Positions 28,112 through 50,185 of a DNA stretch of 64,000 nt are shown here, one piece after another (the stretch's first letter is position 1; the number at the start of each line of letters is the position of its first letter). Below the pieces are notes generated by a model. The model was given only the letters and a program-made list of their open reading frames with translations. It searched no databases and had not been told where the DNA came from. The position numbers and the translations under genes are program-made. Source of the DNA: Eledone cirrhosa (lineage: Eukaryota); NCBI GenBank assembly GCA_964016885.1, contig OZ024740.1, forward strand, positions 237,894,001-237,958,000, given 5' to 3'.

Positions 28112-28182
<71 letters not shown>

Positions 28183-29199: not shown

Positions 29200-32154
29200 T
29201 CAACCTACAGGCTGATATAGAGAGAAGGCCCATTCACTCGGGCCATTCTCGCCACTTTCACCCACCTTTCATAAATCTTGCTGGGGTACAGCACCTCTCT
29301 CTACGCTTAGAGTTTCACCGAGCGCGTCGTCGCACTTGCTGCGGACCAACCCTCTATAGAATGACGAAGTGGAGTCTCCACTGATCGCCGGGTCCGCCTG
29401 CCAGAGGGCTGTGAGCGCCTGAGCACATTCGATGTGCCAGTCGCCCATTTTCCTCGGTCTTTGCTTGACCCAGGACTGCAGCTCGGTCAGCGAGACGAGT
29501 CGTGGGAAGGCTCGCCTCACGAACGGGGCCCACACCGGTTGTCCGGTGAGGAATACGTAGAGATGCCACAGCCTGAGCGCGTGTTTGCGCATCGTCAACC
29601 ACGGCATCCCCAGCCCTCCGTTAGAAGGGTGTTGGCAGCAGATGGATCTTCTCACCAAAGGAGCCCGCCTCTTCCAAAGGAATCGGAAGAGCGCGCGTTC
29701 CATTTTGGCGAGCGTTTTGGCTGGACAAGGCACGACGGTCAAGCGGTAGTAGATGGCGGACGCTATAAAAGTGTTCGCCACCTCCGCTCGACCTTTCAAG
29801 GATAGTTTGCACTCGGCCCACTTCTGGGTGAGTGCAAACACCTTGGCCGTCACTTCGTTCCAGTTCTTCTCCACCTGAAGGTCCGGACCAAACCAGACCC
29901 CGAGCAGCTTTACCGGTCCTTCCGTCCAGCGTCCGACGACGCCATCGGAAGGCATCGGTTTGCCTCTCCACGATCCGAGTTGCAAACCGATGGACTTGTC
30001 CCGGTTCAGCTTCGCTCCTGTGAGACTTTCGTATTCCTTCAGTAAGGTGCTGACTTCCTCGATTTGCGAGGCGCTCGACACCACTACTGTCACGTCGTCG
30101 GCGTAGGCCGACGCCGCTTTCCGCAGTCCCGGTTCCAGAGGGATGCCCTGCAATAGCTCCAACTTCTGCAGTAGTGACTCGAGAGTCAGTACGTACAGAA
30201 GGGAGGAGAGAGGGCATCCCTGTCGAATGGATCGCGTAATATGGAACGGCTCCGAGAAGTAGCCGTTTACCTTGACCCTTGAGCAGATATTGCTGTTGTG
30301 CATTGCAGCAATCCAGCCCCTGAACACGGGTCCGAAGCCTGCCGCCTCGAGCACCGCATCCAGGTAACGATGGTCAACCCTATCGAAAGCCTTAGACTGA
30401 TCCAAGTTGATCAGGGCCCCACCGAAGCCGGGTTTATACCCTACCCTCTCTATGATGTATCGCATGAGGTGGAGGTTGTCGTGTATGGACCTGGTCGGGA
30501 TTGCGCATGTCTGCGCTTCTCCCACCAGGTTCTCGACGACAAGCGCCAGCCTCTTTGCCAACACCTTGGCCAAAATCTGTAACTCTGTGTTTAGCAGAGT
30601 TATGGACCGGAAGTTGCCTATGTCATCCCCCTTATTCTCGTCCTTCCTGATTAGTGTGACCACGCCCCCCGGTTACAGAACTGGGAATTCTCCCGTTCTG
30701 TTGCCAGTTGCAGTAGACCGCTTCCAGGAGACCGGAGAATAAGTCCGGCATTGCTACGTAAGATTCGTAGGGTGGACCGTCGAGACCTGGAGATTTGCGT
30801 TTGCCGCATTGGCTCAGCGCGTCCCCTATCTCAGTGGCTGAAATCGGCTTTTCGCTGTGCGAGAGTCGTGGTAGGCCGTCGAGGTATGGACCGAAATCCA
30901 CAGCCTCTCCAAGCGCCCCCCCCCCCCGAACAGTTGAGCAAAGTGCCGCTGAAAAGCCGCACACATCTGCTTCGGCTCACGTATCACGCATCCGTTTTGG
31001 TCCTTCAAAGACCGAATCGTGGACTTGTTGCCACTTTTTGCCTCCGTCACTCGGGCCCAGCTAACAGCTTTGGCTCCCTCGTTTCCCAGAGCACGTATTT
31101 TGCTTCTGACAACGCAGCCCTCGTGCTTTGCGTCGAAGAACTGGTCCAAGGCCGTTCTCGTTGTTAGCACGCTGGCTACGTTGCCACTTCTAATTGCCTC
31201 TTCTACTTTATCTACCAGTTCCTTCTCGGTTCTATTTCTATCTAACGCTAATTCTTTACTAAAAACCATCGAGTCTAATCTAACTGCCCTCTTGAGAGAG
31301 TACCACCATCTGTTGTTGACAATGGCCCCTGTCAAGTGCTGTTTAACTAAAGTGCTAATTCGTCTGCTGTAGGCTTTGCTTGTCGGTAACGACAAGTTCA
31401 GCTTCCAGTAGCCGGGTCCTTGTCTATGGGTTCTATCAAGGTTGGCCATGCAGGTCACTAGTTTGTGATCTGAATAGGCAACCATGAACATTTGTGGACA
31501 GCTTAACATGTCCCTATCCTTATTTCTAACTAGAACCCTATCTAGGTACGATCTAGATGTTCCGCTACGATTACTCCATGTCCACAGTGGCGCAGTCGGA
31601 AAATCTAGTCGATATCTATCGGCCAGGTCAAATCGGTCGATTAACTGTTTGAGGCTGTTACATCCCCCTTTATCGGGACATTCTCCCACATAGTCCCAAC
31701 GTGCATCTAGGATTCCATTCCAGTCCCCCACTAAAAGCAAGGCGCGGGACGTTCCCAGAAAAGTCTCTAGACGTTTGAAGAAGTCTGGCCGCGGTGTCCC
31801 GGATGGGGCATATGCGGCCACCAGCCTGAAGGCTCCACCTTCACTACCGTCAACGTCTAGGACCACCAGTCGACCCTCCGGGTCCAGATGTACCGTCTGT
31901 GTTACGAGGCCCAGGTGTTCCCGCAGCAAAACGGCAACTCCTCCCCCACCCTACCCACCCCCCGGTTGACAGAGAGATGCGTAGATCTCAAAGTCATTGA
32001 AGATGGGGGCCAGCTGTCGCTCGCTGTGGATCCTGGACTCGCAAATGGCTACCACATCCATACTGTGCGACCTGAGGTCGTTTAAGAGTTTGCCCTGTTT
32101 CCAGGGCATCCCCAGGCCGCGTACGTTCACACATCCAACTCTTATATTGGTCAT
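29200..32154 (-). pseudogene. Tx1-type ORF2 (APE-RT), broken by frameshifts and a C-terminal deletion
   Basis: Pieces 31951-32154, 30826-31929, 30632-30964 and 29269-30663 together give an APE-RT polyprotein; frameshifts fall at G runs. Confidence 0.88.
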
Positions 32155-32187
32155 GTTGGTGCTGAAAAGTTAAAAGAGGAAAAGAGA

Positions 32188-33627
32188 TCACTCACCCTTC
32201 GTCTCCTGGGGACCAGGCCGCACGATTTCCATGGGGGTGTTGGAGGGGTTGTCTGGATGGGTGGTGGTTTCCGACGGCGTGGGGACGGAGATGTTTGGTG
32301 GGGTGGGGTCTGGTGGGATGGGGGTGTCTGGGGTGGGGAGACATTTGAGAAGGACGCGGTTGAGTGGTTTCACGCAGGAATTCCCCACATCCTTCTCAAA
32401 TGTTTCTTTTAGGGACCTATAAGTTTGTATAGGGACCCTAATCAGTTTTAGGTTCAGTTTTTTGCTATTTTTAATAGAGTGGGCGAAAATTTTCCCTTCG
32501 GTTTTTACCGAAGGGTCGTTCGTGATGGTCTCCATTAGTGTTTTGTTTTCAGTGTTTATGTAAGTGTAAGTGTAATTTTCTTGTGTTGTGTTTGTTTTTG
32601 TCTGTAGTTCTTGTGTGTGCTTTCGTTTTGTTGTAGGTATTTTGTTTTCAGGAGGTGGGGGTTTTGTTTGTGATGTTTTTGTTGTTTGTGTTGGTGGTTG
32701 TATGTTTGTGGTAGTGTTTGCTGGTTTTTTGTTTTTGTGATGTCTTTTCTTTCTTTTCGAGCGATGGGGTTCTCCCTCGTCTTCACTGGGTGATGGCGAG
32801 ATAGCCTCATCTGTTGTACCGTCTGTGTGATTGGGGAGTGGTATGTCTTGGGGAGCTGTTGTGTCTGTATGTGATTTTGCAGTGGTTTTAGGTGGAGTGG
32901 GGTTGGGTGGGACTGTGTTTGTTGTGGTTATTTTTGTGTGTTGGTGTTGTTGTTGTTGTGGTGGTGTTGGTGGTTGTGTTGTTTTGATGGGTGTCGGCAG
33001 AAGAGCCTTTTTTTTATTCATTAATTTAGGACAGGAAGCCCTCAGGTGAGCCCTGCTAAAGCAATGGTAACATGAAGGCCGCCTACCCTCAACCGAAAAG
33101 TTTATGTAGGTGAGTCCGTCCAGGAGTACACGTTGTGGGATCGTAGCTATTCGCTCTGGGCTCATTTGCACCAGAACTTCAATGCTAGTCCCATTGAATA
33201 CATCTCTGGGGGACTTTCCTACTGACAGTATTCTGTCTTCATCAAAATTGATGAAGCCGCACAGTATCCACCATATGTTCACCTTTGGTGTGACACTCGT
33301 GATTCTGATCTTTTGTGTCCTTTTTCCCATGTACGTAGGGAAAAAGGTGTACAGGTTGGATACAATTGGCGACACAGAGTAATTTTGGGCCGTCAATTGA
33401 TCCTTCATGAGTACCGAAATACTCCCAAAAAGTTTGCTTCTTTGAATGAATGCAATATCATTCATTGAATTTTTGAAAACCAGTTCAATTTCTTTCTGTG
33501 ACAATTGGACTGGTTTTCGGGTAAAATTAGAAACTGTCCTAAAAACTATTGTTTTGAGAGCAGTTTCCTTGCGAATTCCTACCGGAGAATTGATGCTGAA
33601 AGCACCATTTTTTTTAGAAAGTGACAT
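32188..33627 (-). CDS. Tx1-type ORF1 (gag-like, zinc knuckle CYHCFSRAHLRASC, Pro/Thr-rich C-terminus)
   Basis: 479 aa open frame. The Asn-rich ORF 33654-34016 (ISFAEKVKK) is probably its frameshifted N-terminus. Confidence 0.8.
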   Translation of the reverse strand: MSLSKKNGAFSINSPVGIRKETALKTIVFRTVSNFTRKPVQLSQKEIELVFKNSMNDIAFIQRSKLFGSISVLMKDQLTAQNYSVSPIVSNLYTFFPTYMGKRTQKIRITSVTPKVNIWWILCGFINFDEDRILSVGKSPRDVFNGTSIEVLVQMSPERIATIPQRVLLDGLTYINFSVEGRRPSCYHCFSRAHLRASCPKLMNKKKALLPTPIKTTQPPTPPQQQQHQHTKITTTNTVPPNPTPPKTTAKSHTDTTAPQDIPLPNHTDGTTDEAISPSPSEDEGEPHRSKRKKRHHKNKKPANTTTNIQPPTQTTKTSQTKPPPPENKIPTTKRKHTQELQTKTNTTQENYTYTYINTENKTLMETITNDPSVKTEGKIFAHSIKNSKKLNLKLIRVPIQTYRSLKETFEKDVGNSCVKPLNRVLLKCLPTPDTPIPPDPTPPNISVPTPSETTTHPDNPSNTPMEIVRPGPQETKGE

Positions 33628-34325
33628 ATCTCCTAGCGTCCTTTAAAAGTTGTTCAGCATTTGTTATGTCGAGATATATCAATTCTTCCTTTTTTTTTAA
33701 CTTTCTCTGCAAAGGAGATTTTTGGTTTCTTTGTGGAATTATCCGTGTTGTTGGTGTTGTCATTATTGTTGTTATTGTTGTTGTTATTCTTGTTGTCACC
33801 GATGTTGATATTATTCGTATTTTCCTTGGTGTTGTTGTTGTCTTTGATGCTGGTGTTATTGGTGTTGTCTTTATTTTTTTCGTTGTTGTTGTTATCATTG
33901 CTGCTTTTATCATCATTATTGGTGTTGCTGTTATTTTTGTTGTCATTGAGCTGTTTGGTGTCATTTGTGTTGTTTGGATGTGAATTCGTTTTTACATTTT
34001 CATTTTGTCTTTCCATCTCTATAGTATCTAGTGAAGAAGACGTTGTTGACTGCGAGCTTTGTAGTCTTACCGCCTCTCCACCACCATTATCGTTGGACCA
34101 GCGTTCATAACGTAATCAAAATTTTACAATATTTTTTCCAAGATTCGATGGAGAAAAAATTTTCCAATGGATATTCCGCCCCTGTAGGCGCGAAAATGAG
34201 TTGACCCACCACCTGAAGGTCCAGACGAGGAGTCAAGTTACACAATGATATAAAATTTAACTAAAAACTCACGTTTTTTTCTTACATAAATTAACGGAAA
34301 CTTCTCCGCGAAGTTACACACGTCT

Positions 34326-34525
<200 letters not shown>

Positions 34526-34528
<3 letters not shown>

Positions 34529-34719
34529 GAGAACGGGCTGAATAGTTCATAGGCTGACTATGACGTTAGCGCTGTGAAATCTTGCATACATTAATTTCAA
34601 CTCTTCTTATTAATAATTGCATTGTTTCTTTCCTGAGACTACGTTGAAAAATAATCCTTATTTGATCATTCCATGAGAGTATCTTGGTCAGCCTATGAAC
34701 TTTTCAGCTGACCCCCGTA
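34526..34719. mobile_element. Mariner-type MITE (~190 bp)
   Basis: TIRs GCTGAATAGTTCATAGGCTGAC / GTCAGCCTATGAACTTTTCAGC; one end reads ...CCCCCG|TA. Mirror copy at 40840-41032. Confidence 0.7.
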
Positions 34720-35809
34720 TGTACACACAACCGACTTCTGTACAGTTTCCATGAACAGAATTCTACTCACAAGATATTGATTAATCAGAGGCTATATAGT
34801 AGAAGGTACTTGCCCAAGATACTGCACATTGTGATTTAATCTGGAACCACTTAACTTTTTAACTATTCAGATATGCCTGTATCTATGTTCTACAGATGTT
34901 GTGCAATAACAGGTCAACTTTTGGAGGAGTTTAAATCAAGCTTCAATAGATTTGCCACTATATAAAAATCAGTTTATTACTGAACTTTTTACATTGGCAT
35001 CAAATATGAATGCATCAAATATTAAGTTGATAAGAAGAGATGCAACACTTTGATCTAAGTTAAAATGCTGATAAGTAATTAATCCAACAAAAAAGCCTCC
35101 ATCACGTTTATTTACCCTAAAAGATTTTTTTTCTTTTTTTAGATTTAAACTTAGATTTATTGTAATAGAAAATATACTGCAGTAAAAAGAAAAACTCTAT
35201 TAAATCACAACATATTCTCTTAAAACGATATATTTTAAGACATGTCGGATAGTTCTAGATACACTATGTTTGAAAATGATATTATATGAAGGGCCACAAC
35301 AGGTGGTGAGAAGATATTGTGAGGTCTGTTTTGTTGACAAGTCAACGTACAAAAGAACATTATGGTCGATAAAATAAAGTACCAGTAATGCACTGGGTAA
35401 TTTGCTGGCCTTGTGCCTAAAGTAGAAACAATTATATTGTATAACAGAAAGTTTAGGTTTCGTAGGCAATGTTTCATTGTCTTCACAATCCTTGCTATCT
35501 TTGCTGTCATCAATGAGAACTTCATATGTTATTTCTTTTCCTGTTAACTTTTGGTATCCAGTGTCACTCTACTGATATCATAATCATTGACAAATCTTTC
35601 AACATGAAGCCATTGAATTGAGTATTATAGACTAGAAGTTAAGATTTTTGTTCTCTTTTGTCTTCCTTAGGAATATTCTCTTCCCTCACTAGGAAAAGTT
35701 CATCAAAATATCTTCACCAGTACAAACACTTGTAGGCTGCAATTATACCTTGATACATTGGCTAGATCATGGAGGCAACATTTGCTGGCAAGAACATGCA
35801 CCTTATCAT

Positions 35810-35986
35810 TTGGCAGTATCGGTAGAGGGTTGGACACCATGCTTTCCAGCATAGAGTTTACGATCCGAGTTCAAATCCCGCCGAGGTTAACTTTGCCTTT
35901 CATTTTTACGGGGTCGATAAAATGAAGTACCAGTAATGCACTGAGATAATTGCTGGCTTTGTGCCAAAAGTAGAAACAATTATTAC
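35810..35986 (+). mobile_element. tRNA-derived SINE
   Basis: Same family as 2814-3005. A 3' fragment also lies at 35366-35433; mirrors at 38874-39049 and 39425-39492. Confidence 0.85.
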
Positions 35987-37217
35987 TAACAAGTTGGTGA
36001 CCACCTAGATGAGTACGTGAATTGTTCAAAATAATGTCAGGTCAGGTTTCTGCCTGTTACTGGTACCATGTAACCTAGTACAACCTGCTTCATGGTTGGT
36101 TGACAACTAACTGGCTGCTTCACCAAACCCTGGTCTGGTGAGGAAGATAAGTCGGACCCCAGCAGCACAAAAAACAAGACCTGTCAAAGGACTGATGAAC
36201 TCCTCAGAGTCAACGCTCATCCACCCCAACTGGAGTCCACTTGACAAAGCATGGTGTGTACAGTTAAACCCTGATGACATGACCAAACCCAAAAGTGGTG
36301 GAGGTCAATCAGAGAGGGGTTCCTCCTATAAGAGTGAGAAGGTCTTGGATTGGATTTGCTAATCAAAAGAATGTTTCAGGAAATATTGTTGCCATTTATG
36401 TACTGCAAAAAACCCCACTCAATAAAGGTATCCATGCTGAAATATGATTTCTTGAAATAGTACACTGGTAATTGGTACATTATTTCTTTTAAAACCCACA
36501 GGCATACTGGCTTTCCTGCCACCACTAACTCTAAAATATGTTTATCTTCTGAGTTTATACAATAGAATATTGAAAAATATTCCTTGTTTAATTTAGGGAC
36601 AAATGTGGCAGCTTCATTATTAAAAGCTTGAGTAATCCAGGATAATCACTGCCAATACAACCCAGTAGCATTCTCATTAAACTGCTAAAAAATTAGGAGC
36701 CCTTCACACTTAATTAATTAATTCAATTTCTTCCTGAATAATTTGAATTCCTCAGTTGATGTGCTACTTGCTTCACCCTGAATAATTTCAGAATGTGTTC
36801 CATGGTGATTTCTAAATCACCATAACAACCCATCACTAGCTTCAAAATTTGTTATGCTTAATTAGCTTGAGAGGAAAAGTTTGAATTTCTACACTGTAAA
36901 TGTTGTTATCACAGGATTGTTGTTATCTAAATCACTTCATTACTGCAGCCTCAATATTTGTAACTTTTGCCACTTTGTCATGCTTCTTTGCATTAACAGA
37001 GAATTATTTAAAGGCATCCACATTATATTTCAAATTCAGTGAATTTATCTTTAGCCTTGGGTATATTCAAAATTGTTTGCTTTTTAACTTAACATAACAC
37101 TCTTCACAAATTCTTGCCACCAAAGCACCAGCCTCTAAGTTCCTTATATGTTCCAGTTTTTGGTTCCTCAATAAAATCACATGCCTCCTTTTTAGATTAT
37201 GCGTGTGATCAAATTAA

Positions 37218-37962
37218 AAAGGGAGGAGGACACTCCAAGGCTATAGTATCTAGAATAAGGACAGGATGGAAGAAATTTAAGGAGCTACTTCCTCTGTTGA
37301 CAATGAATAGTTTCTCCCTATGAACGAATGGTCGGTTGTATGATGCCTCTGTGAGATGCACGATGCTGTATAATTGTGAGACATGAGCAGCAACTGTGTA
37401 GGATATGCGAAGGCTGGAGAGAAATTAACCAAGCATGCTCCAATGGATGTGCAATGTCAATGTTCATGAAAGACCAAGCATGGACGAGTTGAGAGAGAAA
37501 CTGTGTATAAAAGGAAGAAACAGTAGTGTGCAAGAAAGAAGACCATGGTATGGCCATGTGATGCACATGGATGATGACTGCTGGGTGAAGAAATGCCAGG
37601 TGATCCCAGTGGAAGGAAGACACAGTAGAGGAAGACTACGGAAGTCATGAGCGGAGGTGGTGAGAGCTGACTTCAGATCGCTGAAGTTCACAGAGGAGAT
37701 GATGAAGGACCGTGACAAATGAAGAGATGCTGTGCTGAAGAGGACCCTTTTTCTTTGTAGCCTACCAAACTCCTCTTTCTCTTTCCTGATGAAGAATTAA
37801 TGTCTGATATGTTGAGACATTGACACTTCCTTTCCAATAAGCATGAAACTAATAACACTTTATTTAATTGCATCGCTCTATTTGTCTTTTTTGTCTAACC
37901 CATGCTAGCATGGAAGATAGACGTTAAACGATGATGATGATGATGATGATGATAATGATGAT
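37218..37962 (+). mobile_element. RTE LINE 3' fragment in the palindrome spacer
   Basis: RIRTGWKKFKELLPLLT...WMCNV...WYGHVMHM...GRLRKS; (GAT)n tail. Confidence 0.8.
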
Positions 37963-38316
37963 GTTTATCTTTTTTAATCTTGAATTATATATATATACAC
38001 ATACATAACTGCAGTCTGGTGACTGAAACCAGTCAAAGACTAAAAGAATATATATATATCATGATTATCATTATCACCATCGTCATTATCATCATTATCA
38101 TCATTATCATTATTATCATCATTATCATCATCACTATTATCATCATCAACATTATCATCATTATTATCATTTAATGTCCATTTTCCGCACTTGCATGGGT
38201 TAGACAGATGGTCATGTTATGAGACAAGTCAAATCCGGATGTAATTAGTCCATATGGATTTATATTTGGGATTGATTTCTACAGCCAGATGTCCTTCCTA
38301 ACACCAATCACATTAC

Positions 38317-38399
38317 AGTATGGATTGGATGCTTTTTATCATGGCTCCAACATCAGGTGGTTGTGTTGGTGCCATGATAAAAAGCATCTAATCCACACT
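38317..38399. repeat. 36-bp fold-back hairpin at the inner junction of the inverted duplication
   Basis: 38317-38352 pairs with 38364-38399 (33/36), 11-nt loop. Confidence 0.9.
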
Positions 38400-40117
38400 A
38401 TTTCAAGAAATCATATTTCAGCATGGATACCTTTATTGAGTGGGGTTTTTTGCAGTACATAAATGGCAACAATATTTCCTGAAACATTCTTTTGATTAGC
38501 AAATCCAATCCAAGACCTTCTCACTCTTATAGGAGGAACCCCTCTCTGATTGACCTCCACCACTTTTGGGTTTGGTCATGTCATCAGGGTTTAACTGTAC
38601 ACACCATGCTTTGTCAAGTGGACTCCAGTTGGGGTGGATGAGCGTTGACTCTGAGGAGTTCATCAGTCCTTTGACAGGTCTTGTTTTTTGTGCTGCTGGG
38701 GTCCGACTTATCTTCCTCACCAGACCAGGGTTTGGTGAAGCAGCCAGTTAGTTGTCAACCAACCATGAAGCAGGTTGTACTAGGTTACATGGTACCAGTA
38801 ACAGGCAGAAACCTGACCTGACATTATTTTGAACAATTCACGTACTCATCTAGGTGGTCACCAACTTGTTAGTAATAATTGTTTCTACTTTTGGCACAAA
38901 GCCAGCAATTATCTCAGTGCATTACTGGTACTTCATTTTATCGACCCCGTAAAAATGAAAGGCAAAGTTAACCTCGGCGGGATTTGAACTCGGATCGTAA
39001 ACTCTATGCTGGAAAGCATGGTGTCCAACCCTCTACCGATACTGCCAAATGATAAGGTGCATGTTCTTGCCAGCAAATGTTGCCTCCATGATCTAGCCAA
39101 TGTATCAAGGTATAATTGCAGCCTACAAGTGTTCGTACTGGTGAAGATATTTTGATGAACTTTTCCTAGTGAGGGAAGAAAATATTCCTAAGGAAGACAA
39201 AAGAGAACAAAAATCTTAACTTCTAGTCTATAATACTCGATTCAATGGCTTCATGTTGAAAGATTTGTCAATGATTATGATATCAGTAGAGTGACACTGG
39301 ATACCAAAAGTTAACAGGAAAAGAAATAACATATGAAGTTCTCATTGATGACAGCAAAGATAGCAAGGATTGTGAAGACAATGAAACATTGCCTACGAAA
39401 CCTAAACTTTCTGTTATACAATATAATTGTTTCTACTTTAGGCACAAGGCCAGCAAATTACCCAGTGCATTATGGTACTTTATTTTATCGACCATAATGT
39501 TCTTTTGTACGTTGACTTGTCAACAAAACAGGCCTCACAATATCTTCTCACCACCTGTTGTGGCCCTTCATATAATATCATTTTCAAACATAGTGTATCT
39601 AGAACTATCCGACATGTCTTAAAATATATCGTTTTAAGAGAATATGTTGGGATTTAATAGAGTTTTTCTTTTTACTGCAGTATATTTTCTATTACAATAA
39701 ATCTAAGTTTAAATCTAAAAAAAGAAAAAAAATCTTTTAGGGTAAATAAACGTGATGGAGGCTTTTTTGTTGGATTAATTACTTATCAACATTTTAACTT
39801 AGATCAAAGTGTTGCATCTCTTCTTATCAACTTAATATTTGATGCATTCATATTTGATGCCAATGTAAAAAGTTCAGTAATAAACTGATTTTTATATAGT
39901 GGCAAATCTATTGAAGCTTGATTTAAACTCCTCCAAAAGTTGACCTGTTATTGCACAACATCTGTAGAACATAGATACAGGCATATCTGAATAGTTAAAA
40001 AGTTAAGTGGTTCCAGATTAAATCACAATGTGCAGTATCTTGAGCAAGTACCTTCTACTATATAGCCTCTGATTAATCAATATCTTGTGAGTAGAATTCT
40101 GTTCATGGAAACTGTAC

Positions 40118-40815
40118 AACTGTATGACAGCTGTATAAAAAAAGTGCAGGGTGATAAATATAGACGGTAGCCACGAAGTAGGCTGACCCAGAAAACCCTG
40201 GGACGACTTGATAAATTCCGACCTCACACACTTACACCTCTCCAAGACAATGTCACTGGACCGAGATCTTTGGTGCTACACAATTATACAGAAGACCCGC
40301 CTTGCCTAAGTACAAAGCGAAACCTACAGTCAGTAGGCACCTCTAACAAAATACACCCCCGTCCCACTACCTCACCACCCCCTTAAATGTGAAGTTATGT
40401 TGGTACCACAACATCCAGTCCAAAACAAATGAGGTCTTTTAGGTGTCACGACAAAAAAAAAACACACAGTCCACGCTGTAATGTGGCCGTGTAGGTAACA
40501 CGGTAAAAGCCTCCCAGTCCACACTGTAAACATGGTTGGTGTTGGGAAGGGCACCCAGCCGTAGAAAACCCGCCAGACGTGTAGGTGTCACAACAACAAA
40601 AACACACAGTCCACGCTGTAATGTGGCCGTGTAAGTAACACGGTAAAAACCTCCCAGTCAACACTGTAAACGTGGTTGGTGTTATTAAGGGCACCCAGCC
40701 GTAGAAAACCCGCCAGACAATCCTATACGAGCAGGACAACCAATCTCAAGTGGGAAAACTCCTGTTCAAACCCATGCAAGCGTGGAATATGGATGTTAAA
40801 CGATGATGATGATGA
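40118..40815 (+). mobile_element. RTE-type 3' fragment with an internal ~138 bp tandem duplication; right arm only
   Basis: G*PRKPWDDLI..DRDLW; repeats at 40440-40578 and 40581-40718; (GAT)n tail; TGTAC(A) at both junctions, single copy at the left-arm empty site ~34739-34744. Confidence 0.75.
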
Positions 40816-41547
40816 TGTACAGAAGTAGTTGTGTGTATATACGGGGGTCAGCTGAAAAGTTCATAGGCTGACCACGATACTCTCATGGAATGATCAAATA
40901 AGGATTATTTTTCAACGTAGTCTCAGGAAAGAAACAATGCAATTATTAATAAGAAGAGTTGAAATTAATGTATGCAAGATTTCACAGCTCTAACGTCATA
41001 GTCAGTCTATGAACTATTCAGCCCGCCCCCATTTATATATATATATATATATATATTGGTAAAAGGAAAAGAAAATGCTGACAAATTGTTCCCAGTGAAA
41101 AATAGTTTAATTAGGAATAAGTAAAAATTAGTAATAGTATTGGTTAGTATTCAGTTTTGGTTTTAAGTTTTACCGGTTGCACATTCCTAATGCTTTTCAA
41201 AAATAATTTGGAGATAGAGCGCCCGTGATGTTTGCTCTAATCTGATTAGTTTTGGAAATTCTACCTGTTTTATGTAAAAAAAGGTGGCTCCAGATGTATG
41301 AAAAAATTTGTGTGGTCAAAACAATTTTGATTGGTCGGTAGAGGTCATGTGAATGTTAAAAATTGATTTTGCGCCAAATGTAGGTTTGTCTCAGCTGATT
41401 GAGAAGTCACTAAAAAATAAGTCTTTCAAAACAAATATGTGTGTGTGTGTGTGTGTGTAGTAGTAAAGAGGTTCGTTGTTGTGATAATGATCAGCAGGGA
41501 TGTTTGTGCGAACTGCAGCCTGTTGACAGTTCAAATGCCTATTAAGA

Positions 41548-41586
<39 letters not shown>

Positions 41587-41923
41587 CAGAGTAATTCGTG
41601 GTAGAGGGATGGTCAGTATGAATGTGTCTGTACGTGTGTGGGGGATATTTTAACATGTTAAAGATATTTTTCAGCTCTTGTCTTATACGGAGAAGTGTGT
41701 GTGTGTGTGTGTGTGTATATGTCTCTTTGTATGTTAATGTACACGTGTGTATGTGTGTGTGTGTATATGTGTGTGATTGTGTGTGTGAGAATGTGTGTGT
41801 GTGGGTGGACCAGTATTTTTGTGATACTGGTAAAAATGGTGTACATTATTCGATATGTATCTATATATATATATGTATCTATATGTATATATATGTATCT
41901 ATCTATCTATCTATCTATCTATC

Positions 41924-42628
41924 CGTTCGGGACAAGCTCTACAGACACGGGCGCCCAGGCAGGGATCCCTCGAAAAAAATCTGTCCGAGATGCGTGCGGG
42001 ACGAGGAAACCGTCGCGCACGCATTTGTACACTGCCCGGGCGTTACCGACCTGTGGAGCTATGCAGAACGACTACTGTCGCGGGTGGGACAAATCCGGTT
42101 GACCACCGAGTCCATTAGTGCGAAACAAACCGCCACCTTCCTTCAAAAACGAAGGAGAAGCGGTTTTCCACTGTGTAGTTGCTATGGTGAAAGAGGCTAT
42201 ATGATTGATGAGACTGAAAGGGCTGAGGTCAGATACCTTTCGCTCCGGCGAACAGCTGGTTCGCTTCTTCAAATATCATTTTAGAAGAAGAATCAGAGTG
42301 GAGAGAGAGGTGCTGTACCCCAGCAAATTTTACGAAAGGTGGGTGAATGAGGCAAGGATGGCCTGAGTGGTTGGGCCTTCTCTTTATATAAGCCTGTAGG
42401 GCCCGGAAGAGGAAGAGAGGAGAGGAGTGCTCGCTCTTTGTGCTCCTGGAGATGAGGGTTGTACATTTTTTTTCGGGGTGTGTGCAACCCATTTGTAACG
42501 CCTCTCCCTGTATTGGGGATTTTGTTTGTTTTATTGATCATTTTTATTATATATTTTTACATCCCTTGTATGTAAACGCCCTAATTGTATTTCCCCCATC
42601 TGTTGCGCCCTTGTTGCAAATAAAGAAA
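41924..42628 (+). mobile_element. Mirror copy of the 5'-truncated Tx1 LINE
   Basis: Preceded by (TATC)n and followed by TATCTATC(TA)n. Confidence 0.85.
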
Positions 42629-42638
42629 TATATCTATC

Positions 42639-42672
<34 letters not shown>

Positions 42673-42707
42673 TATACATATACATATATACATACACACA
42701 CACACAC

Positions 42708-42849
<142 letters not shown>

Positions 42850-43235
42850 CTTGAGGAGTACTACTACATTCACTTGTGTCCAGCAATGTGATACACTACC
42901 ACACCATATAGAACTTTCCATTCAAGGGAGGGTAACTCCTGCTGATGACACAGTTCATGCCAACTTACATAATGTATACTAACATAACCTAATTACTGCA
43001 CTGGTGGTTCCATTCGGACCACAATCAGTAGATCGGAATCATAGAAACTGGTGCATTGGTTCAGGTATCTCAAATCTCTTACACTCATGAAGTCGTCTTC
43101 CTCACTGATTAGTGTATGTATACACACTAATTGGTTGGTTCAAATTTTAATAATACGGACTTAATTAGATTATTAAGTAAACGAGGAACTGACCGAAGCT
43201 ATGTCCATTCTATTTGATAAACTTAAACCCATAAT

Positions 43236-43266
<31 letters not shown>

Positions 43267-43363
43267 ATGTATGAATGTATGTATGTTTCTCTTTCTCTTA
43301 ATTTCGAGTACATTTTTGACTGGCCACCTTCCTGGTGGCAAGGTTGTAAAAGAAAAGAAATTG

Positions 43364-44055
43364 TCATTCCTTGAATCGCAAGAATGTTTTGCGAATTTTG
43401 AAGGTGCCAGCTATCGCAGCCATTTGTAGTCTATGAATTAGGGACCTGCGTTCTTTGTCAACAAATCCAAGTTCAGACAAGTGGGTTGGTATATAACCTG
43501 TAGCTCCAATAATGATGGGTATTAAGCTGATCTTCAAACTCCTCATCAATGGTCCATAGATGTCTTCCTTCTCTTTTATTTTTCTTACAACATTGACATC
43601 AAGTGGGCATCTGATCTCTACAACAGAGCACATTGTCTGGTTCCAAACAACAACATCTCAGTTATCTTAATTTGGTGGCAATTTTTATTTTCAGGTTCCA
43701 CCAATATTCTTTAGTGCCGTCTTGATCAACATATTCCTCCTCATTTTGTTTTCCTAAGTGTGCTCCAGATGGTTCTAGCTATCACATCGCGTCTCATAGG
43801 GAGGTTGTAACGAGACGACATTCTTTCGCAGTTGGCAACAATGTGGCTAATATCTTCGATCTTTGTTTTACAAGGCAGACATTTGTTATCAACTGATGGC
43901 CCTCCTCTTTTGTGTAGCAGATATTTGGTAGGGATTTCTTGTTCTTGTATTGCATAGAGATATCCTTCAGGTGGAATGTCATAAACTTGTGGAATTCCGT
44001 GCCAGGCTTTTTGGATGATGTATCTCCTCTATGGTCTGTGTTTTTCGTCTCAGGT
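43364..44055 (-). mobile_element. Mirror copy of the R4/Dong-like 3' fragment
   Basis: CSVVEIRCPLDVN...IPIIIGATG...FLRFKE. Confidence 0.7.
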
Positions 44056-44169
44056 ACCCATCTAGGAGGGCAGTGACTCTGATATAAAAATGACTACATT
44101 GGGCAGACGTGGGCTCCATAAGCTATAGTGAAGGCTACCAGTCTAGGAGAGTAGACATTCCAAATAAAA

Positions 44170-45785
44170 ACTGATACAGGATGGAGAGGACTCTTAAGTC
44201 TGGTAAGACAATCTCTCTAGTGCTGGTGGCATGAACAATATGCCCAATCCATGCTGTAAACTAGTTGGTGATCGGAAGGGCATCCAGCCAGTAAAGGGCA
44301 GAAGTGATGCTCTAGAAAGGAGCAACTATAGAGGAATAAAACTAATGGACAAAGTTATGAAAATGACAGAAAGAATTATGGCACAGCTAATTAGGGAAAG
44401 ATTCAAAATAGATGAGATGCAGTTTGGTTTCATGCCTGGGAAAAGTACTACAGATGCCCTCTTCTTAGAGAGACAACTACAAGAGAAGTTCCTTGCCAAA
44501 AATAAACCACCATATTTAGCTTTTGTTGATCTAGAGAAGGCTTTTGACAGAGTACCCTGATCTACTATCTGCTGGTCCTTAAGGAAATTAGGTGTAGAAG
44601 AATGGCTTATGAGAGCAGTGCAAGCTATGTATAGAGGAGATGTCAGTAAAATCAGAGTAGGAAATGAGTTTAGTGAAGAATTTAAGGTGCAGATAGGAGT
44701 TCATCAAGGTTCAGTTCTTAGCCTCCTGCTGTTGATCATAGTTTTTCAGACTATAACAGAAGAGTTTAAAATGGGTTGCCCATGGGAACTTCTCTATGCA
44801 GATGATTTGGTCCTTATAGCTGAAACCAAAAATGAGCTAGAAAATAAATTATGATTATGGAAATTGAATTTGGAATCAAATGGTTTAAGAGTAAAGTTAA
44901 CGAGAACTAAAGTGCCAGTGAGTAGGAGAGAAGATAGGTCCCAGATTCCCTCAAGAAAGTGGCCTTGCTCAATATGCAGAAAGGGTGTAGGCATAAACTC
45001 CATACAATGTACACAATGTAAATCTTGGGTACACAAATGATATAGTGGGATAATCAGTAGACTAACAGGAAGGGAGGCCTTTGCTTGTAGAAGATACACA
45101 GTAGAAATCGAGAGGAAGACTGCTAATGATATAATCCTTTTCCAGTCACAGGAAGGATTCATTTACGTGGTTGATAGCTTCTGCTATCTTGGTGACCTAG
45201 TTAGCAATGGAGGAGGGTGAGCCAAGAGTATAATAGTTAGAATAAGGATAGGATAGAAGAAGTTCAGAGAACTACTTCCACTGCTGACAACAAAAGATTT
45301 CTCCCTATGTACAAAAGGAAGGCTGTGTGGTGCGTGATGCTACATGGTAATGAAACATTCGCTGTGACCACAGAGGACATGTGTAGACTGGAGAGAAATG
45401 AAGCAATCATGTTTCGTTGGATGTGCAATGTAAATGTGAGAGAAAGGCAGAGCTTGGGCAAGCTGAGAGATAAACTGGGCTTAAAGGGAATCCGAGATGG
45501 TGTGCAGGAGAGAAGACTGTGTTTAAATGGACATGTGATGCACATGGACAATGACGGATGGGGGAAGAAATGCCAGGAAATCCCAGTGGAAGGAATCCGC
45601 AGTAGAGGATGACCAACAAAGACCTGGGCAGAGGTTGTGAGAGCTGACCTCAAATTGCTAAGACTGGCAGAGGAGATGTCGAAGGAACACCACAAGTAGA
45701 GAGATGCCATGCTGAGAAGGATCCATCCAACCCTTGCAAACATGGAAAGGCAGACATAAAAACGGTGATGTTGATGATGATGTTC
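44170..45785 (+). mobile_element. Mirror copy of the internally deleted RTE, retaining its 3' end
   Basis: RT motifs plus a (GAT)n-like tail at 45765-45782. Confidence 0.85.
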
Positions 45786-46227
45786 CCCAATTTACAAATA
45801 CACCATTTCAATGAAGAGCGGTTGTGTGAAAGAGCAATCCTTGACCACAGAAACATCACAGTAAATGCCCTCAACAAAATCTCTCACAAATGATCCCTGG
45901 AGGTAGCCAGACCTGTAAATTTATTGACACTAAAATCATTCTAAATACTGAAGTTCTGCATATTTTTTATAATTTTCCTTGAATACATTTTTCTATTCTT
46001 TTCTTTATTACTTTCTGTATTTAGATATTCTAAATAAAATTTCAAAATTATGTTATGCAATATTTAAATACCTTTTAACATCTTTTATTCAAAGGAAACT
46101 GGACATTATGACAGATGACAATAGGTGCCTTATGAATAGATTTAAACACAGTACAGACCTGGGTGAAGGGTGGGTGGCCACTAGCATCTGTATAAATAAA
46201 TGAGTGTGTAATTGAGATTGCACCAAC

Positions 46228-46373
<146 letters not shown>

Positions 46374-46854
46374 ACATATATATATATACTTCGTTTCGGT
46401 ATTTGTTATGCAAGATATCTTATCCTATTACGTGTGCTGAAACAAATATTGTTATACTTTGGGAGGGTCATCCTGCCAATAAAAAAACACATGCACCCGT
46501 TGGTTTTCACTTCAGTTTATTAAAAATTTCCAGTTGTTTGGTTTAGTAACTGGATGGTTGTTTAGTTATTGTCAAAGTTCTTTTGTCACACATTCTGTGA
46601 CCTCCTCAGTGACTAATTTTTTTTATTTTTGTCTCTCTCCTTTATTCTGTAAGATGGAGTAGGACAGGACAAAGAAGAGAAAAATAATAACAAATTAGTC
46701 ACTGAGGAGGTCACAGAATGTGCGATGAAAGAACTTTGACAATAAATAAACATCCATCCAGTTACTAAACCAACCAACTGGAAATTTGTATTAAAATGTA
46801 TAACAATATATATATATAATAAATAACAAAGAACGCTTATAGCATATGCATATC

Positions 46855-46910
46855 TTTACTTGCTAACATTGTTTCATCCGCACTATAAGTGGGACTCATC
46901 AGAGCATAAA
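46855..46910 (-). ncRNA. Minimal hammerhead ribozyme (inverted pLTR of PLE-B)
   Basis: Reverse complement of 50785-50840. Confidence 0.7.
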
Positions 46911-47886
46911 GTTTAATTACATACCATACAAGCAATAACAAATCCAAGACATTGAAGAATGAAAGGTAATAATAGACGATAAAGGATAAGAATAAAAATA
47001 AAAGTAAAAATAAAAATAAAAATAAAAATAAAAATAAAAATAAAGGGTGCTATCAGTCACAGTTGGGCGGGGTGCTGTCAACATATAGTTACATACAAGC
47101 ATACACATGGATAAGAGAACAGACAAGAGTAGACACATGGATAAGAGAACAGACAAGAGTAGATAAGATAATGGGATTAGGTAAGAGTAGGTAAAAAATA
47201 GGTAAAAAATAGGTGAAAAACAGACTTATAATATATATAAAAAGAAATACAAAGAAATACATAACAAACTTACATATAAAATATAGGGTAAGGAATGAGA
47301 TAAAATAATATAAAATTAAAAATTAAAAATTATATACATAGAACATAATATAATATAATCGTAAAATAAGATAAAATAAGGTAAACTAAAATCAAATAAC
47401 ATAGACTAAATTAAAATAATATAATATAAGATATAATTAAATGTATAATTAAATGTAATTAGGCTTTAGGGACAAATTGTATTACACCCAGGGAAATAAT
47501 GGTCCTAATAGTAGCTCTACCATTGTTATAACACATAATATGTCCATTGGTAATCGAGGTGTCGCGAATGGGAGGGTTCTAAATGCCGGTGGAATGAAAC
47601 AGCAGGGCACCATTAGTCTAAGTAATAACAATAGAGGTGTCGTGAACGGGAGGTTTCTAGATGCCGGTGGAATGAACCAGCAGGGCACCATTAGTCTAAG
47701 TAATAGCAATGGTAGGCCTCGCAGCTCCCCGCATAGACTAGGTGAGCATAGGAACCGTAGAAATAATAATGCTAATAATACTGATGGAAATAGAAAGAAT
47801 AAAAAGAATAGAAGAAGATTGAATACATACTTCAACCCCCCTTTTAATTCTGAAGTGGCTATAAATATTCCTAGGGCTTCTTCTCT

Positions 47887-48546
47887 GTGCTAGAACGGAA
47901 CTTCCCTCCTGGTAATAGGTACCACTCTATCCTCAATAAGAATGTTGTTAAACTTTCGTATTCTACAACCCAAAATCTGGCCTCTCATCTGGCCATTACT
48001 AATAATAAGAAAATAAAGGAAGGCCTGGACAACCTAAGCCTAGGGGAAAACACGGTAGTGGATAGAGTGGGCAGAAACACTGGTGGTGATCTTTCTGAGA
48101 ATAGCATCACCAGAGGTTGTAACTGTAGAAGGGCTTCAGGCTGCCCCCTGAATGGTTTCTGCCTTGTTAGAAACATAGTTTATGTGTGTGATGTGGTAAC
48201 TACGGCGTCCACTATGACCTATATAGGATCAACTTCCACCCCCTTTAAGACCAGGTTTAACTCTCATCAATGCACTTTTAGACATAATAAACTGAGGAAC
48301 TCCACCTCCTTGGCAGCGTACGTCCATAATTTAAAAAATGCACGAACACCTTACACACTTACTTGGCGGCAGGTTGCTAAATCCCATCCATATACTCCTC
48401 ATAGTAGAGTATGTAACCTGTGCCTTGCCGAATCCCACTCTATTATATTTGCTAAATGCCCTCTACTAAATAGAAAGTCTGAAATTTTTTCCTCTTGCCC
48501 CCACCGAATATTAAGCTCTTTCTTCTACTTTAAACCTGTTAGCTAG
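47887..48546 (+). pseudogene. GIY-YIG endonuclease part of the PLE-B ORF
   Basis: CNCRRASGCPLNGFC..NIVYVC..TYIGST..FKTRFNSH..CNLCLAE..LNRKSE..CPHR. The upstream FNPPFN segment is frameshifted and the RT core is missing. Confidence 0.85.
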
Positions 48547-50137
48547 CACGTCCTTATTCCTCCAGTTGGGCTGTCTTGTGTAACTGTCTCTGACTGTGTG
48601 TAACTGTCTCCTATTGTTGGCCGTCTATGTATACGAGTCTGTGAATGTATACGTATGCCTGTGGGAGGATATTGATCTAGATATTGGGGTGTGCAGGGGA
48701 GTGTATGTTAATAAGCACCCCTGTTTGGCACAGTGGATGTAACCCATCCACGCTGGCCTACCCACCATTAGTGCATTGGTGGACCTATCCTGACGTATAT
48801 CTTGTTGATCTGTACCTCTGTATGCGCATGAGTTGTGATGTAATGTATTTATGTAAAGCGTGTACTGCGATTTAGGCTGCACTAGTAGAAATTTAGCCTG
48901 TAACTGTGGGCGGACCCGTGCCATCCTGCCGTAAGCAGTGGATACGTGGCGCATATACGTGTTGCCCTCATATTCTGTGGTTCAAGATCTACAGGCTGAC
49001 CTCTGGGAGCTCTTACCCGGGGTTGTAGTCTTTCTAGCACGATCGGCCTTCCATATATTGACGGTCGTTTTTATGATCCCGAAAGTAACGTTTTGGCCCC
49101 GATGGCCCTCCGTAGTTACTAACGGTCTGTGTACACTCGAATCGGTCAATGGCACGTGCAGACATGAATATCTCCGTAGGATTTCAACTTTATTTTTCTA
49201 CATCTCATCGTATGTATTTGTTTTGAATATATTACCTGTGGTGGTGGGTCTAGTCTAATGTGGTATTTCGGTGTTTAATATCGTATTTAATATCGACTTT
49301 GACCCGTGTGTCCTACGCTGTGTGTGTGTGCGTGTGTGTCCGTGTATACATTTATATGTGTATGGGTGTAGGTGATTATATGTGTCTGTATATATAAAAA
49401 AAAATATATATATATATATGTATACCGTCTCTGCATGTGCATGTGGTGTGTATACGTGCATATACGTGCTAAACATATTGATGTGTACAATCTTGTGATG
49501 TCCCAATGCGGTGACTTAATGGCTCCTGAAGCTATTTTTTATATATCTTCTGTCTTTTTATATATATTTTGTATGCGCTACAACTGTGTCTGCTTGCTTT
49601 AACCCGCCTCACCTTGCTTACTAATGCACGTGAATTCTTCTACCTCCTTCGATGCACCTCTCTCTGACCATTGGACTCCTGCCCGTGTGTGAACCGGTTT
49701 GTGATTACCCCACCGCTCAACTGTGTGAATGCACACCCATGACTTTCGAGTGAACTTTCGAGACTGCCCAACCTGGGACGCCTCCATTGCCTTGCAATGG
49801 TCAAGTGATACTGGTGACTGTGACACTTAGTGCCTTCGTGGGCCCCTGATGTTTTCAAGAAATATATTTTAAAAAATTGGTCAAGTGATACACATAACTG
49901 TGACAATTAGTGCCTTCGTGGGCCCCTGATATATTCAAGAGATATTTTCTAAAAAAATATATATCTTATCTCAATTTACTTTATTTCATTTTATTTTATT
50001 TCATTTCATGTTATCTAATTTTATTTATTTACTTACTTGACTCCATTTATTTATTTATTTATTTATTTAAATTTAAATTTAAATTTTAATTTTAAAATTT
50101 AAATTTTAATTTTATTTATTTATTTAATTCTTAATTT

Positions 50138-50185
<48 letters not shown>

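What the first reader, a model, noticed from the sequence alone, without database searches (positions are those of the whole stretch)
38317..38410. Template-switch scar exactly at the palindrome's inner breakpoint
Seen: a 36-bp fold-back (38317-38352 vs 38364-38399, 33/36 paired). Its last 3 nt (ACT, 38397-38399) are also the first 3 nt of the right arm, matching the left-arm end at 36459-36461. Established: a short fold-back followed by a microhomology jump is the signature of FoSTeS/MMBIR-type inverted duplications. Inference: synthesis turned back, copied 36 nt, jumped ~1.9 kb and copied the left arm backwards. This favours a real event over an assembly error, and the 3 mismatches suggest it is old.
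Basis: partly seen in the sequence, partly recalled or inferred. Interest (0 to 1): 0.75.

Follow-up and report, generated by a model that had tools for sequence, protein, structure and literature searches.

The report
Fold-back scar at palindrome junction
A 45-base inverted copy of one retroposon repeat unit sits exactly where the copied arm of a roughly 20-kb palindrome begins, and it likely records repair synthesis turning back briefly before jumping 1.9 kb to copy the other arm: a known kind of breakpoint scar, here unusually legible.

Summary
38317-38352 pairs with 38364-38399 at 33 of 36 bases, and ACT (38397-38399) is shared with the right arm.

- The inverted piece is 45 nt (38355-38399). 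It is one 48-nt tandem unit of an RTE-tailed retroposon on the minus strand, so the hairpin lies at that copy's 5' side, not its tail.
- Nine of its bases are absent from the adjacent direct copy.
- The palindrome is about ten times larger than assumed: 15454-36461 against 38397-55858.
- It is old. Each arm carries its own transposon insertions. Mismatch is 0.41% in the innermost 1.7 kb and 3.3% elsewhere, which implies homogenisation near the centre.

The outer end of homology cuts a LINE reading frame.

Such hairpins are rare in this repeat family, though a few other copies carry short inverted 5' pieces without any palindrome beside them.

Best reading (0.6): serial template switching at a broken end or fork. 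The main rival is a pre-existing twin-priming hairpin.

Public short-read contigs confirm the left junction and the hairpin turn. They neither show nor exclude the right junction.

This is a new member of a known kind.

The parts
15454..36461 (+). Left (ancestral) arm of the palindrome, 21,008 nt. Includes left-only blocks 18113-18685, 25053-28036 and 28966-34502.
   Evidence: Colinear inverted BLAST chain. Two test stretches have the partner arm as their only full-length match in the genome. The LINE ORF runs on past 15454.
36462..38354 (.). Single-copy spacer up to the break. Contents: unique DNA 36462-37190; RTE-like LINE 3' fragment with (GAT)n on the + strand, about 37190-37965; AT/ATC-rich tail 38060-38169; retroposon 3' part.
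   Evidence: A contig of 965-967 nt in each of 3 runs (one sample) covers 36299-37263/37265 without any difference and bridges 36461|36462.
38170..38354 (-). Direct 3' part of the RTE-tailed retroposon copy, ending in its first 48-nt unit. This is the left hairpin arm (38317-38352).
   Evidence: At least 2,941 candidate copies in the genome. The 40 scored matches end at query 168-184, which is window 38337-38353. Alignment with 29 copies. 29 of 183 sites differ from the majority.
38355..38399 (+). 45-nt inverted copy of one 48-nt unit, i.e. the templated insertion. This is the right hairpin arm (38364-38399). Its first 9 nt have no direct counterpart at the locus.
   Evidence: Both arms carry the rare GGATT[R]GAT variant: 106 exact 17-mers in the genome against 25,847 of the majority form.
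38397..38399 (.). ACT shared by the inverted unit and the right arm (microhomology with AGT 36459-36461).
   Evidence: The chance of 3 nt or more is 6.2%.
38397..55858 (-). Right (derived) arm, 17,462 nt. Includes right-only blocks 40119-40815 (697-nt retroposon with TGTACA target duplication), 41057-41903 (contains a full-length 796-nt element) and 46826-50971.
55859..55911 (.). Outer junction. The right-arm LINE ORF (APE + RVT_1) stops after ...IPSGKWP and meets a (TA)n tract, then unrelated DNA.
   Evidence: No homology to the left arm resumes beyond it.

Best explanation
The 45-nt inverted unit is most likely a templated insertion left by serial template switching when the right arm of the palindrome was made. 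The steps below are inferred.

1. A 3' end (broken end or stalled nascent strand) stopped at 38354, inside an old retroposon copy.
2. It turned onto the opposite strand a few bases ahead and copied one 48-nt unit backwards (38355-38399).
3. It came loose again and re-primed through ACT/AGT on sequence 1.9 kb upstream.
4. It then copied the left arm backwards for about 12 kb, stopping inside a LINE ORF.
5. The new strand was joined to downstream DNA at a (TA)n tract.

Shown directly: the hairpin, the 3-nt overlap, the family origin and 45-nt extent of the inverted piece, its rarity in the family, the size and age of the palindrome, and that the right arm is the derived copy.

Inferred: that both switches belong to one event, and that a DNA polymerase made them rather than a reverse transcriptase. 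Whether it was fork-based (FoSTeS/MMBIR) or break-based fold-back repair cannot be told from the sequence.

Later, gene conversion between the arms likely kept the innermost 1.7 kb nearly identical, while the short hairpin and the rest of the arms drifted.
For: Anatomy.

The inverted piece is a family unit:
- Eight other copies match 38355-38399 in reverse at 83-91%.
- Ordinary copies carry direct tandem units at this point (29 of 29).

Rarity:
- Exact inverted pattern at 3 loci including this one, reverse-order control at 1 locus, direct tandem pattern 6,778 matches.
- 0 of 29 copies have an inverted unit.

Local origin: both arms share the GGATT[R]GAT variant, which makes up 0.4% of such 17-mers (106 against 25,847).

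Polarity:
- Homology ends at 15454/55858 inside a LINE ORF (RVT_1 E = 2.6e-17, Exo_endo_phos E = 2.4e-5).
- In the left arm the frame stays open for 87 more codons.
- In the right arm it is replaced by (TA)n. Both novel junctions therefore lie on the right arm.

Real and old:
- Arm-private elements have 3.0-3.1% private differences.
- One of them has a target duplication against the empty site in the other arm.
- The arms are each other's only full-length matches in the genome.

Timing fits one event:
- Hairpin mismatch is 3/36. This is compatible with the bulk of the arms at 3.26% (P of 3 or more = 0.11) and with 6-10%.
- It fits poorly with the age of the retroposon copy (15.8% from the family majority; expected arm-to-arm 22-30%; P of 3 or fewer = 0.03-0.002).

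Precedent (PMC3907307, passages read): 21 of 21 sequenced human fold-back junctions had a spacer (766-70,466 bp, median 3,428). 13 had 2-8 bp inverted microhomology. 5 had inserted sequence, some of it short, local and inverted.

Precedent (PMC11724301, abstract read): templated fold-back inversions of mostly 5-34 bp form at yeast breaks.
Against: - The 3-nt overlap alone is weak (6.2% by chance).
- No microhomology can be shown at the first switch, because its template is gone. The two bases TC (38353-38354) fit neither side cleanly.
- If those two positions are counted as divergence (5 of 38), the timing argument no longer separates the models.
- The layout is exactly that of a twin-priming 5' inversion.
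- Short inverted 5' pieces followed by unrelated flank occur in at least 4 other copies with no palindrome beside them (L073, L079, L080, L081, my classification by eye).
- The hairpin's 3/36 is far above the 0.41% of the adjoining inner arm (Fisher 9e-4). That needs gene conversion, error-prone synthesis or a non-identical template to explain it.
- The retroposon's expected continuation (unit 2 onward) is nowhere in the window to the right of 55858, so an unknown stretch was lost.
Confidence: 0.6

Rival explanations
1. The hairpin existed before the palindrome. The retroposon inserted with a 5' inversion (twin priming, or snap-back of its cDNA). Much later a break or stalled fork at the outer base of that hairpin started the fold-back that copied the left arm. 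The hairpin would then be a cause or a bystander, not a scar.
For: - The layout is inverted 5' piece, then direct 3' part, then simple-repeat tail on the element's sense strand. This matches the twin-priming layout (PMC2837659 and PMC11702581, passages read).
- If the piece came from the next unit upstream, the gap in element coordinates is about 10 nt. In PMC11702581, 32 of 32 inverted insertions had short (1-10 bp) deletions or duplications.
- Other copies have short inverted 5' pieces without palindromes (L073; L079-L081).
- Counting 5/38 differences makes an old hairpin as likely as a young one.
Against: - It needs the palindrome's breakpoint to fall within 0-3 nt of the end of a rare structure. 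At most about 1 in 41 family-bearing loci not chosen for hairpins shows one.
- No target duplication was found (score no better than shuffles, p = 0.34).
- This polarity is not enriched in the family: 13 loci against 13 in the reverse order, and 3 against 1 with longer words.
- 3/36 is low for arms as old as the retroposon (P of 3 or fewer = 0.03-0.002).
Confidence: 0.13
2. Retrotransposition itself made the junction. cDNA primed at about 38059 on one end and on the 3' end ...AGT (36461) of a sister strand bridged two ends 1.6-1.9 kb apart, giving a fold-back junction with a reverse-transcribed insert.
For: - Fold-back junctions holding reverse-transcribed inserts, with the two breakpoints kilobases apart, are described in L1-expressing cells (PMC11702581, passages read).
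- Here the whole retroposon copy, tail included, sits against the junction, and the ACT overlap would be the internal priming site.
Against: - The retroposon copy is 15.8% from its family majority, and the family mean is 10.9%. The arms differ by only 0.4-5.6%. The copy therefore looks several times older than the palindrome.
- The roughly 12 kb of copied arm needs DNA-templated synthesis anyway.
- There is no sign that twin priming is common in this family.
Confidence: 0.05
3. The right inner junction is an assembly error. The right arm is a real diverged copy that lies elsewhere or is joined differently.
For: In all 3 short-read contig sets (one sample), the contig that holds the arm's inner 163 nt runs unbranched into the left side of the spacer.
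Against: - The join is between non-homologous sequences with only 3 shared bases, which is not the kind of place where assemblers mis-join.
- The arms form one colinear chain around this centre over 17-21 kb.
- The arm contig 38536-38789 has about 1.5-2 times the depth of spacer contigs (19.6/13.4/12 against 9.65/8.69/6.55).
- The hairpin turn itself is in a read contig (X3, 38295-38384, no differences). It is missing from the other two runs of the same sample, so short paths here drop out easily.
Confidence: 0.04

Closest known systems
Fold-back inverted duplications with a single-copy spacer (Hermetz et al. 2014, PMC3907307; passages read)
   Same: - Direct segment, short single-copy spacer, inverted copy. 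The spacer is 1.9 kb here; theirs were 766-70,466 bp, median 3,428.
- Inverted microhomology at the spacer/inversion junction: 3 nt here, 2-8 bp in 13 of their junctions.
- Short local, sometimes inverted, insertions at some junctions (5 of their 21).
   Different: - Those are terminal events capped by a telomere or a translocation. This one is interstitial, closed by a second junction at a (TA)n tract.
- This one is fixed in an assembly of a non-human animal and is old, with later transposon insertions and homogenised inner arms.
- The insertion here is 45 nt, longer than their 4-22 bp local ones.
FoSTeS / MMBIR serial template switching (Lee et al. 2007; Hastings et al. 2009; recalled, not read here)
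   Same: Two successive switches, a short templated piece from nearby sequence in inverted orientation, microhomology at the second switch, and long-tract copying afterwards.
   Different: Neither a fork-based origin nor a single-event origin can be tested from one assembled sequence. Microhomology at the first switch cannot be checked.
Short templated fold-back inversions at double-strand breaks in yeast (PMC11724301; abstract read)
   Same: An inverted copy of sequence right next to the break, made by a fold-back that uses microhomology.
   Different: Those are mostly 5-34 bp and seal the same break. Here the piece is 45 nt and is followed by a second jump and kilobases of copying.
Twin priming 5' inversions of non-LTR retrotransposons (PMC2837659 and PMC11702581; passages read)
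   Same: An inverted 5' fragment next to a direct 3' fragment of the same element with its tail, microhomology at the 5' junction, and breakpoints close together in element coordinates.
   Different: No target duplication was found, this polarity is not enriched in the family, and the flank is the start of a 17-kb inverted copy rather than ordinary target DNA.
Large palindromes kept alike by arm-to-arm gene conversion (primate sex-chromosome palindromes, Rozen et al. 2003; recalled)
   Same: Kilobase arms around a unique spacer, with identity higher than the age of arm-private insertions allows.
   Different: Homogenisation here is confined to the innermost 1.7 kb. The rest has drifted to 1.5-5.6% mismatch.

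Membership tests
Fold-back inverted duplication | Inverted copy separated from its template by a short single-copy spacer | tested here: met
   Arms 15454-36461 and 38397-55858, with 1,935 nt between them. The spacer's unique part has no other copy in the genome.
Fold-back inverted duplication | Short inverted microhomology, or an insertion, at the spacer/inversion junction | tested here: met
   ACT/AGT (3 nt) plus a 45-nt inverted local insertion. The 3 nt alone are expected by chance in 6.2% of junctions.
Fold-back inverted duplication | One arm identifiable as the derived copy | tested here: met
   A LINE ORF is cut at the outer end of homology. It continues only in the left arm.
Fold-back inverted duplication | Junction present in raw reads | tested here: inconclusive
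   The left junction and the hairpin turn are covered by contigs. No contig covers 38387-38396 in 3 of 3 runs of one sample.
FoSTeS/MMBIR | Two or more template switches in a single event, each with microhomology | not testable with these tools
   The second switch has 3 nt. The template of the first switch is lost. Showing a single event needs an ancestral allele.
FoSTeS/MMBIR | Templated insertion drawn from nearby sequence | tested here: met
   The inverted unit shares the rare GGATT[R]GAT variant with the adjacent direct unit (106 against 25,847 17-mers).
Twin priming 5' inversion | Inverted 5' fragment plus direct 3' fragment of one element with its tail | tested here: met
   Element on the minus strand: tail 38060-38169, direct part 38170-38354, inverted unit 38355-38399.
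Twin priming 5' inversion | Target-site duplication bracketing the whole insertion | tested here: not met
   The best local alignment of the two flanks scores 8. 34% of 2,000 shuffles and 15% of 26 control windows score as high. A short, decayed duplication could escape this test.
Twin priming 5' inversion | This polarity more common in the family than the opposite one | tested here: not met
   13 loci against 13 loci with 10-nt words (at least 3 of the controls belong to another repeat). 3 against 1 with 13-nt words. 0 of 29 sampled copies.

The most novel reading that the evidence does not exclude
The 48-nt unit arrays of this very abundant RTE-tailed retroposon are fold-back hotspots that seed large palindromes. 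The same unit shows small inversions of both polarities at two dozen or more loci. Here one such turn sits at the birth junction of a 17-21-kb palindrome whose centre is still being homogenised. If so, transposon unit arrays would be a recurrent source of palindrome formation in this 3-Gb genome.
Probability: 0.08. Interest if true: 0.6.

Novelty: new member of a known kind. Interest (0 to 1): 0.35.

Why it matters
Breakpoint scars of this kind are well documented in human patients, tumours and yeast. They are rarely readable at old, fixed rearrangements in wild animal genomes.

Here the junction, the polarity of copying, the later transposon insertions and the pattern of arm divergence can all be read from one locus. 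That makes it a dated example of fold-back duplication followed by gene conversion near the centre.

It does not point to a new mechanism. It also warns that in retroposon-rich genomes the same hairpin layout can come from retrotransposition, so junction hairpins inside repeats need an ancestral allele before they are called template-switch scars.

Tried and rejected
- **Raw reads.** Only Logan contigs of 3 runs of one sample (X2-X4) and one run of another organism (X1) could be laid, and both read-laying runs are used.
  - No contig covers 38387-38396 in X2-X4. This says nothing either way: the hairpin-turn path, which is certainly present in X3, is also missing from X2 and X4.
  - X1 holds only repeats at 95% likeness, so no orthologous locus was obtained.
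- **Target duplication** for the retroposon: none found.
- **Eye search for target duplications** around other hairpin-bearing copies (L079-L081): nothing clear.
- **Subfamily test.** I asked whether the left arm's private states are shared with copy L021. L021 shares 6 of 29 derived sites, no more than other copies (up to 7). The argument was dropped.
- **BLAST scan of 29 copies for inverted units**. It has low sensitivity, since it missed the inverted unit later seen in L073.
- **Two inverted transposon copies as the 'arms'.** Rejected. The inner 230 nt of the arm and two outer test stretches have only the partner arm as a full-length match.
- **Outer end of the palindrome at the (GATA)n/(TA)n tract near 34330-34500.** Rejected. 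That tract is the tail of a young element inserted in the left arm (7 of 7 other copies carry the same tail), and homology resumes beyond it.
- **The 45-nt piece as an independent retroposon insertion.** Rejected. It is an internal unit without the element's 3' end or tail.
- **Spacer as a later insertion into a spacerless palindrome.** Rejected. It is a mosaic of unique DNA and several old repeats, and it has no internal symmetry apart from simple repeats.
- **Earlier findings of this scan.** None near this place.

Full report
**1. The observation**

The hairpin is there. 38317-38352 pairs with 38364-38399 at 33 of 36 positions around the 11-nt loop TCAGGTGGTTG. As single-stranded DNA it folds at -33 kcal/mol, against -9.95 +/- 2.32 for 200 shuffles.

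The large inverted repeat starts at 38397 and its partner ends at 36461. ACT (38397-38399) therefore belongs both to the hairpin and to the right arm. A 3-nt ambiguity is expected at 6.2% of random junctions made from this window, so on its own it is weak evidence.

**2. What the hairpin is made of**

- The stretch 38170-38353 belongs to a very abundant repeat, with at least 2,941 candidate copies of which 40 were scored.
- Its low-coordinate end matches, in reverse, the 3' end of an RTE-like LINE fragment that lies at about 37190-37965 on the + strand and ends in (GAT)n. A 697-nt relative at 40119-40815 has the same 3' end on the + strand.
- The copy at the finding is therefore on the minus strand. 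Its simple-repeat tail is 38060-38169. The hairpin lies toward its 5' side, not in its tail.
- In 29 of 29 aligned copies, the part corresponding to 38311-38354 is the first of several direct tandem units of about 48 nt. The same unit also builds kilobase satellite arrays.
- In the window, the first unit is instead followed by one unit in the opposite orientation. 38355-38399 matches eight other copies on the opposite strand at 83-91%.
- The inverted piece is thus 45 nt. Its first 9 nt (CAACCACCT in the family's orientation) are the end of a unit that the adjacent direct copy lacks.
- The turn therefore did not simply copy the 36 nt that are there now. It began about 7-11 nt ahead of the stop at 38354, or it used a neighbouring unit that has since been lost.
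- Both arms carry the variant GGATT[R]GAT. The genome holds 106 exact 17-mers of it against 25,847 of the majority form. The arms are therefore each other's close kin, not chance neighbours.

**3. Is it an ordinary feature of the repeat?**

No.
- With 13-nt words, the inverted arrangement occurs at 3 loci including this one. The opposite order occurs at 1 locus. The direct tandem arrangement gives 6,778 matches.
- With 10-nt words there are 13 loci against 13. At least 3 of the latter belong to another repeat.
- None of 29 sampled copies has an inverted unit by BLAST. That scan is insensitive, because it missed one that was seen later.

The kind of structure does recur, however. I looked at 10 of the 13 loci, classifying by eye:
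- 5 are head-to-head dimers or arrays.
- 2 are internal inversions.
- 3 (L079, L080, L081) have a short inverted piece at the 5' end followed by unrelated flank.

L073 is a fourth case of that last type. None of these four has a large palindrome of unique sequence beside it within the 1.2-3 kb held for each locus.

**4. The palindrome is much larger and older than assumed**

Inverted homology continues outward as one colinear chain:

| Left | Right | Identity |
|---|---|---|
| 34739-36461 | 40118-38397 | 99.5% |
| 34503-34744 | 41056-40816 | 96.3% |
| 28037-28965 | 42839-41904 | 95.5% |
| 22267-25052 | 45580-42823 | 96.8% |
| 21775-22257 | 46304-45822 | 98.6% |
| 20694-21225 | 46825-46292 | 93.3% |
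| 18686-20719 | 53075-50972 | 91.6% |
| 15454-18112 | 55858-53220 | 89.9% |

- Two test stretches (23900-24900 and 19000-20000) have the partner arm as their only full-length match in the genome, at 95-96%. Other hits cover only their transposon parts, at 88% or less.
- Each arm has private blocks:
  - Right arm: 40119-40815 (retroposon with a TGTACA target duplication against the empty site in the left arm), 41057-41903 (contains a full-length 796-nt element) and 46826-50971.
  - Left arm: 18113-18685, 25053-28036 and 28966-34502. The last ends in a young element whose (GATA)n tail is present in 7 of 7 other copies.
- The two right-arm elements each differ from the majority of their closest relatives at 3.0-3.1% of sites.
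- Mismatch is 0.41% in the innermost 1,723 nt and 3.26% (321 of 9,838) in the rest (Fisher 4e-15).

The structure is therefore real and old. The innermost part has most likely been homogenised by arm-to-arm gene conversion. This is an inference. Homogenisation by assembly polishing cannot be excluded from the sequence alone.

**5. Which arm is the copy**

- Homology ends at 15454/55858 inside a LINE reading frame (Exo_endo_phos and RVT_1).
- In the left arm the frame runs on for 87 more codons, through a cysteine-rich motif, and then into further LINE-like sequence.
- In the right arm it stops after ...IPSGKWP and is followed by (TA)n and unrelated DNA.
- The right arm is therefore the derived copy. 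Both novel junctions, 38354-38399 and 55858|55859, lie on it.
It excludes models in which the left arm was copied from the right.
- At the time of the event the copy was about 11.8 kb, i.e. 17,462 nt minus 5,690 nt of later insertions.
- The retroposon's expected continuation is not found anywhere to the right of 55858 in the window, so some sequence was lost in the event.

**6. Reads**

- Three runs of one sample hold the locus as Logan contigs.
- In each run, a contig of 965-967 nt covers 36299-37263/37265 without a difference. The left junction is therefore in reads.
- In X3, a 90-nt contig covers 38295-38384, i.e. the left arm, the loop and 21 nt of the right arm. The same path is absent from X2 and X4.
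- Nothing covers 38387-38396 in any run, so the right junction is neither confirmed nor refuted.
- The arm contig 38536-38789 has 1.5-2 times the depth of spacer contigs, as expected for two copies.

**7. Mechanism**

A 3' end inside an old retroposon copy made a short U-turn (45 nt). It then re-primed through ACT/AGT 1.9 kb upstream and copied about 12 kb of the left arm backwards. It was finally captured at a (TA)n tract.

The pattern matches sequenced human fold-back inverted duplications (PMC3907307, passages read):
- A spacer was found in 21 of 21 junctions, median 3.4 kb.
- 2-8 bp inverted microhomology was found in 13.
- Insertions were found in 5, some of them short, local and inverted.

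It also matches short templated fold-back inversions at yeast breaks (PMC11724301, abstract read).

The timing is compatible with one event:
- 3/36 fits the bulk arm divergence (P of 3 or more = 0.11 at 3.26%), and fits 6-10% better still.
- Arms as old as the retroposon copy (15.8% from its family majority) should differ by 22-30% (P of 3 or fewer = 0.03-0.002).
- This argument weakens if the two unpaired bases next to the loop are counted as divergence (5/38).

**8. Rivals**

- **(a) A pre-existing twin-priming hairpin.** The layout is exactly that of a 5' inversion (PMC2837659 and PMC11702581, passages read), and a few other copies have it. But it needs the palindrome's breakpoint to coincide with the end of a rare structure. 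No target duplication is found, and the polarity is not enriched.
- **(b) A retrotransposition-made fold-back junction** (precedent in PMC11702581). The retroposon copy looks several times older than the palindrome.
- **(c) Assembly error at the right junction.** This is unlikely at a join with only 3 shared bases in the middle of a 17-21-kb colinear palindrome. It has not been excluded by reads.

**9. Verdict**

Its detail (36 nt, tail) is corrected. Its key claim, one event, remains an inference.
- It is a clean, datable member of a known class of breakpoint scar, not a new mechanism.

Noticed in passing
window 15454-36461 and 38397-55858: The palindrome has arms of 21.0 and 17.5 kb, not about 2 kb. 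Mismatch is 0.41% in the innermost 1,723 nt and 1.5-5.6% in the seven outer blocks (Fisher 4e-15). This suggests gene conversion confined to the centre.
   Followed up: partly
window 28966-34502 (left arm only): A young element ending in a (GATA)n tail. 40 scored copies are 96-98% identical over its last 266 nt, and 7 of 7 fetched copies carry the same tail. It inserted at a microsatellite in the left arm after the duplication.
   Followed up: partly
window 41057-41852 and 40119-40815 (right arm only): A full-length 796-nt element (at least 2,980 candidate copies) sits inside a (TA)n tract. A 697-nt RTE-tailed retroposon has a TGTACA target duplication. Each differs from the majority of its closest relatives at about 3% of sites.
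   Followed up: yes
G000:C1:6454787-6461569 and other places: The retroposon's 48-nt internal unit also forms kilobase-long satellite arrays.
   Followed up: no
L042, L077, L078, L084 (own genome): Head-to-head dimers of the retroposon, joined 5' to 5' within the unit arrays with both tails outward. This is what 'dual priming' would give, but they could also be nested insertions.
   Followed up: no
window 36462-36466 and 38395-38399: The spacer begins and ends with the same five bases (ACACT). This may be chance. No mechanism was found that needs it.
   Followed up: no
window 35810-35990: A repeat of about 185 nt inside the arm has thousands of copies at about 90% identity. In places it stands in tandem (for example G000:C15:20519463-20520625).
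   Followed up: no
window 38327-38348 in runs X2 and X4: Contigs of two of three runs of one sample lack the hairpin turn that the third run holds. Short paths between repeat words drop out of these contig sets, which limits what absence can show.
   Followed up: yes
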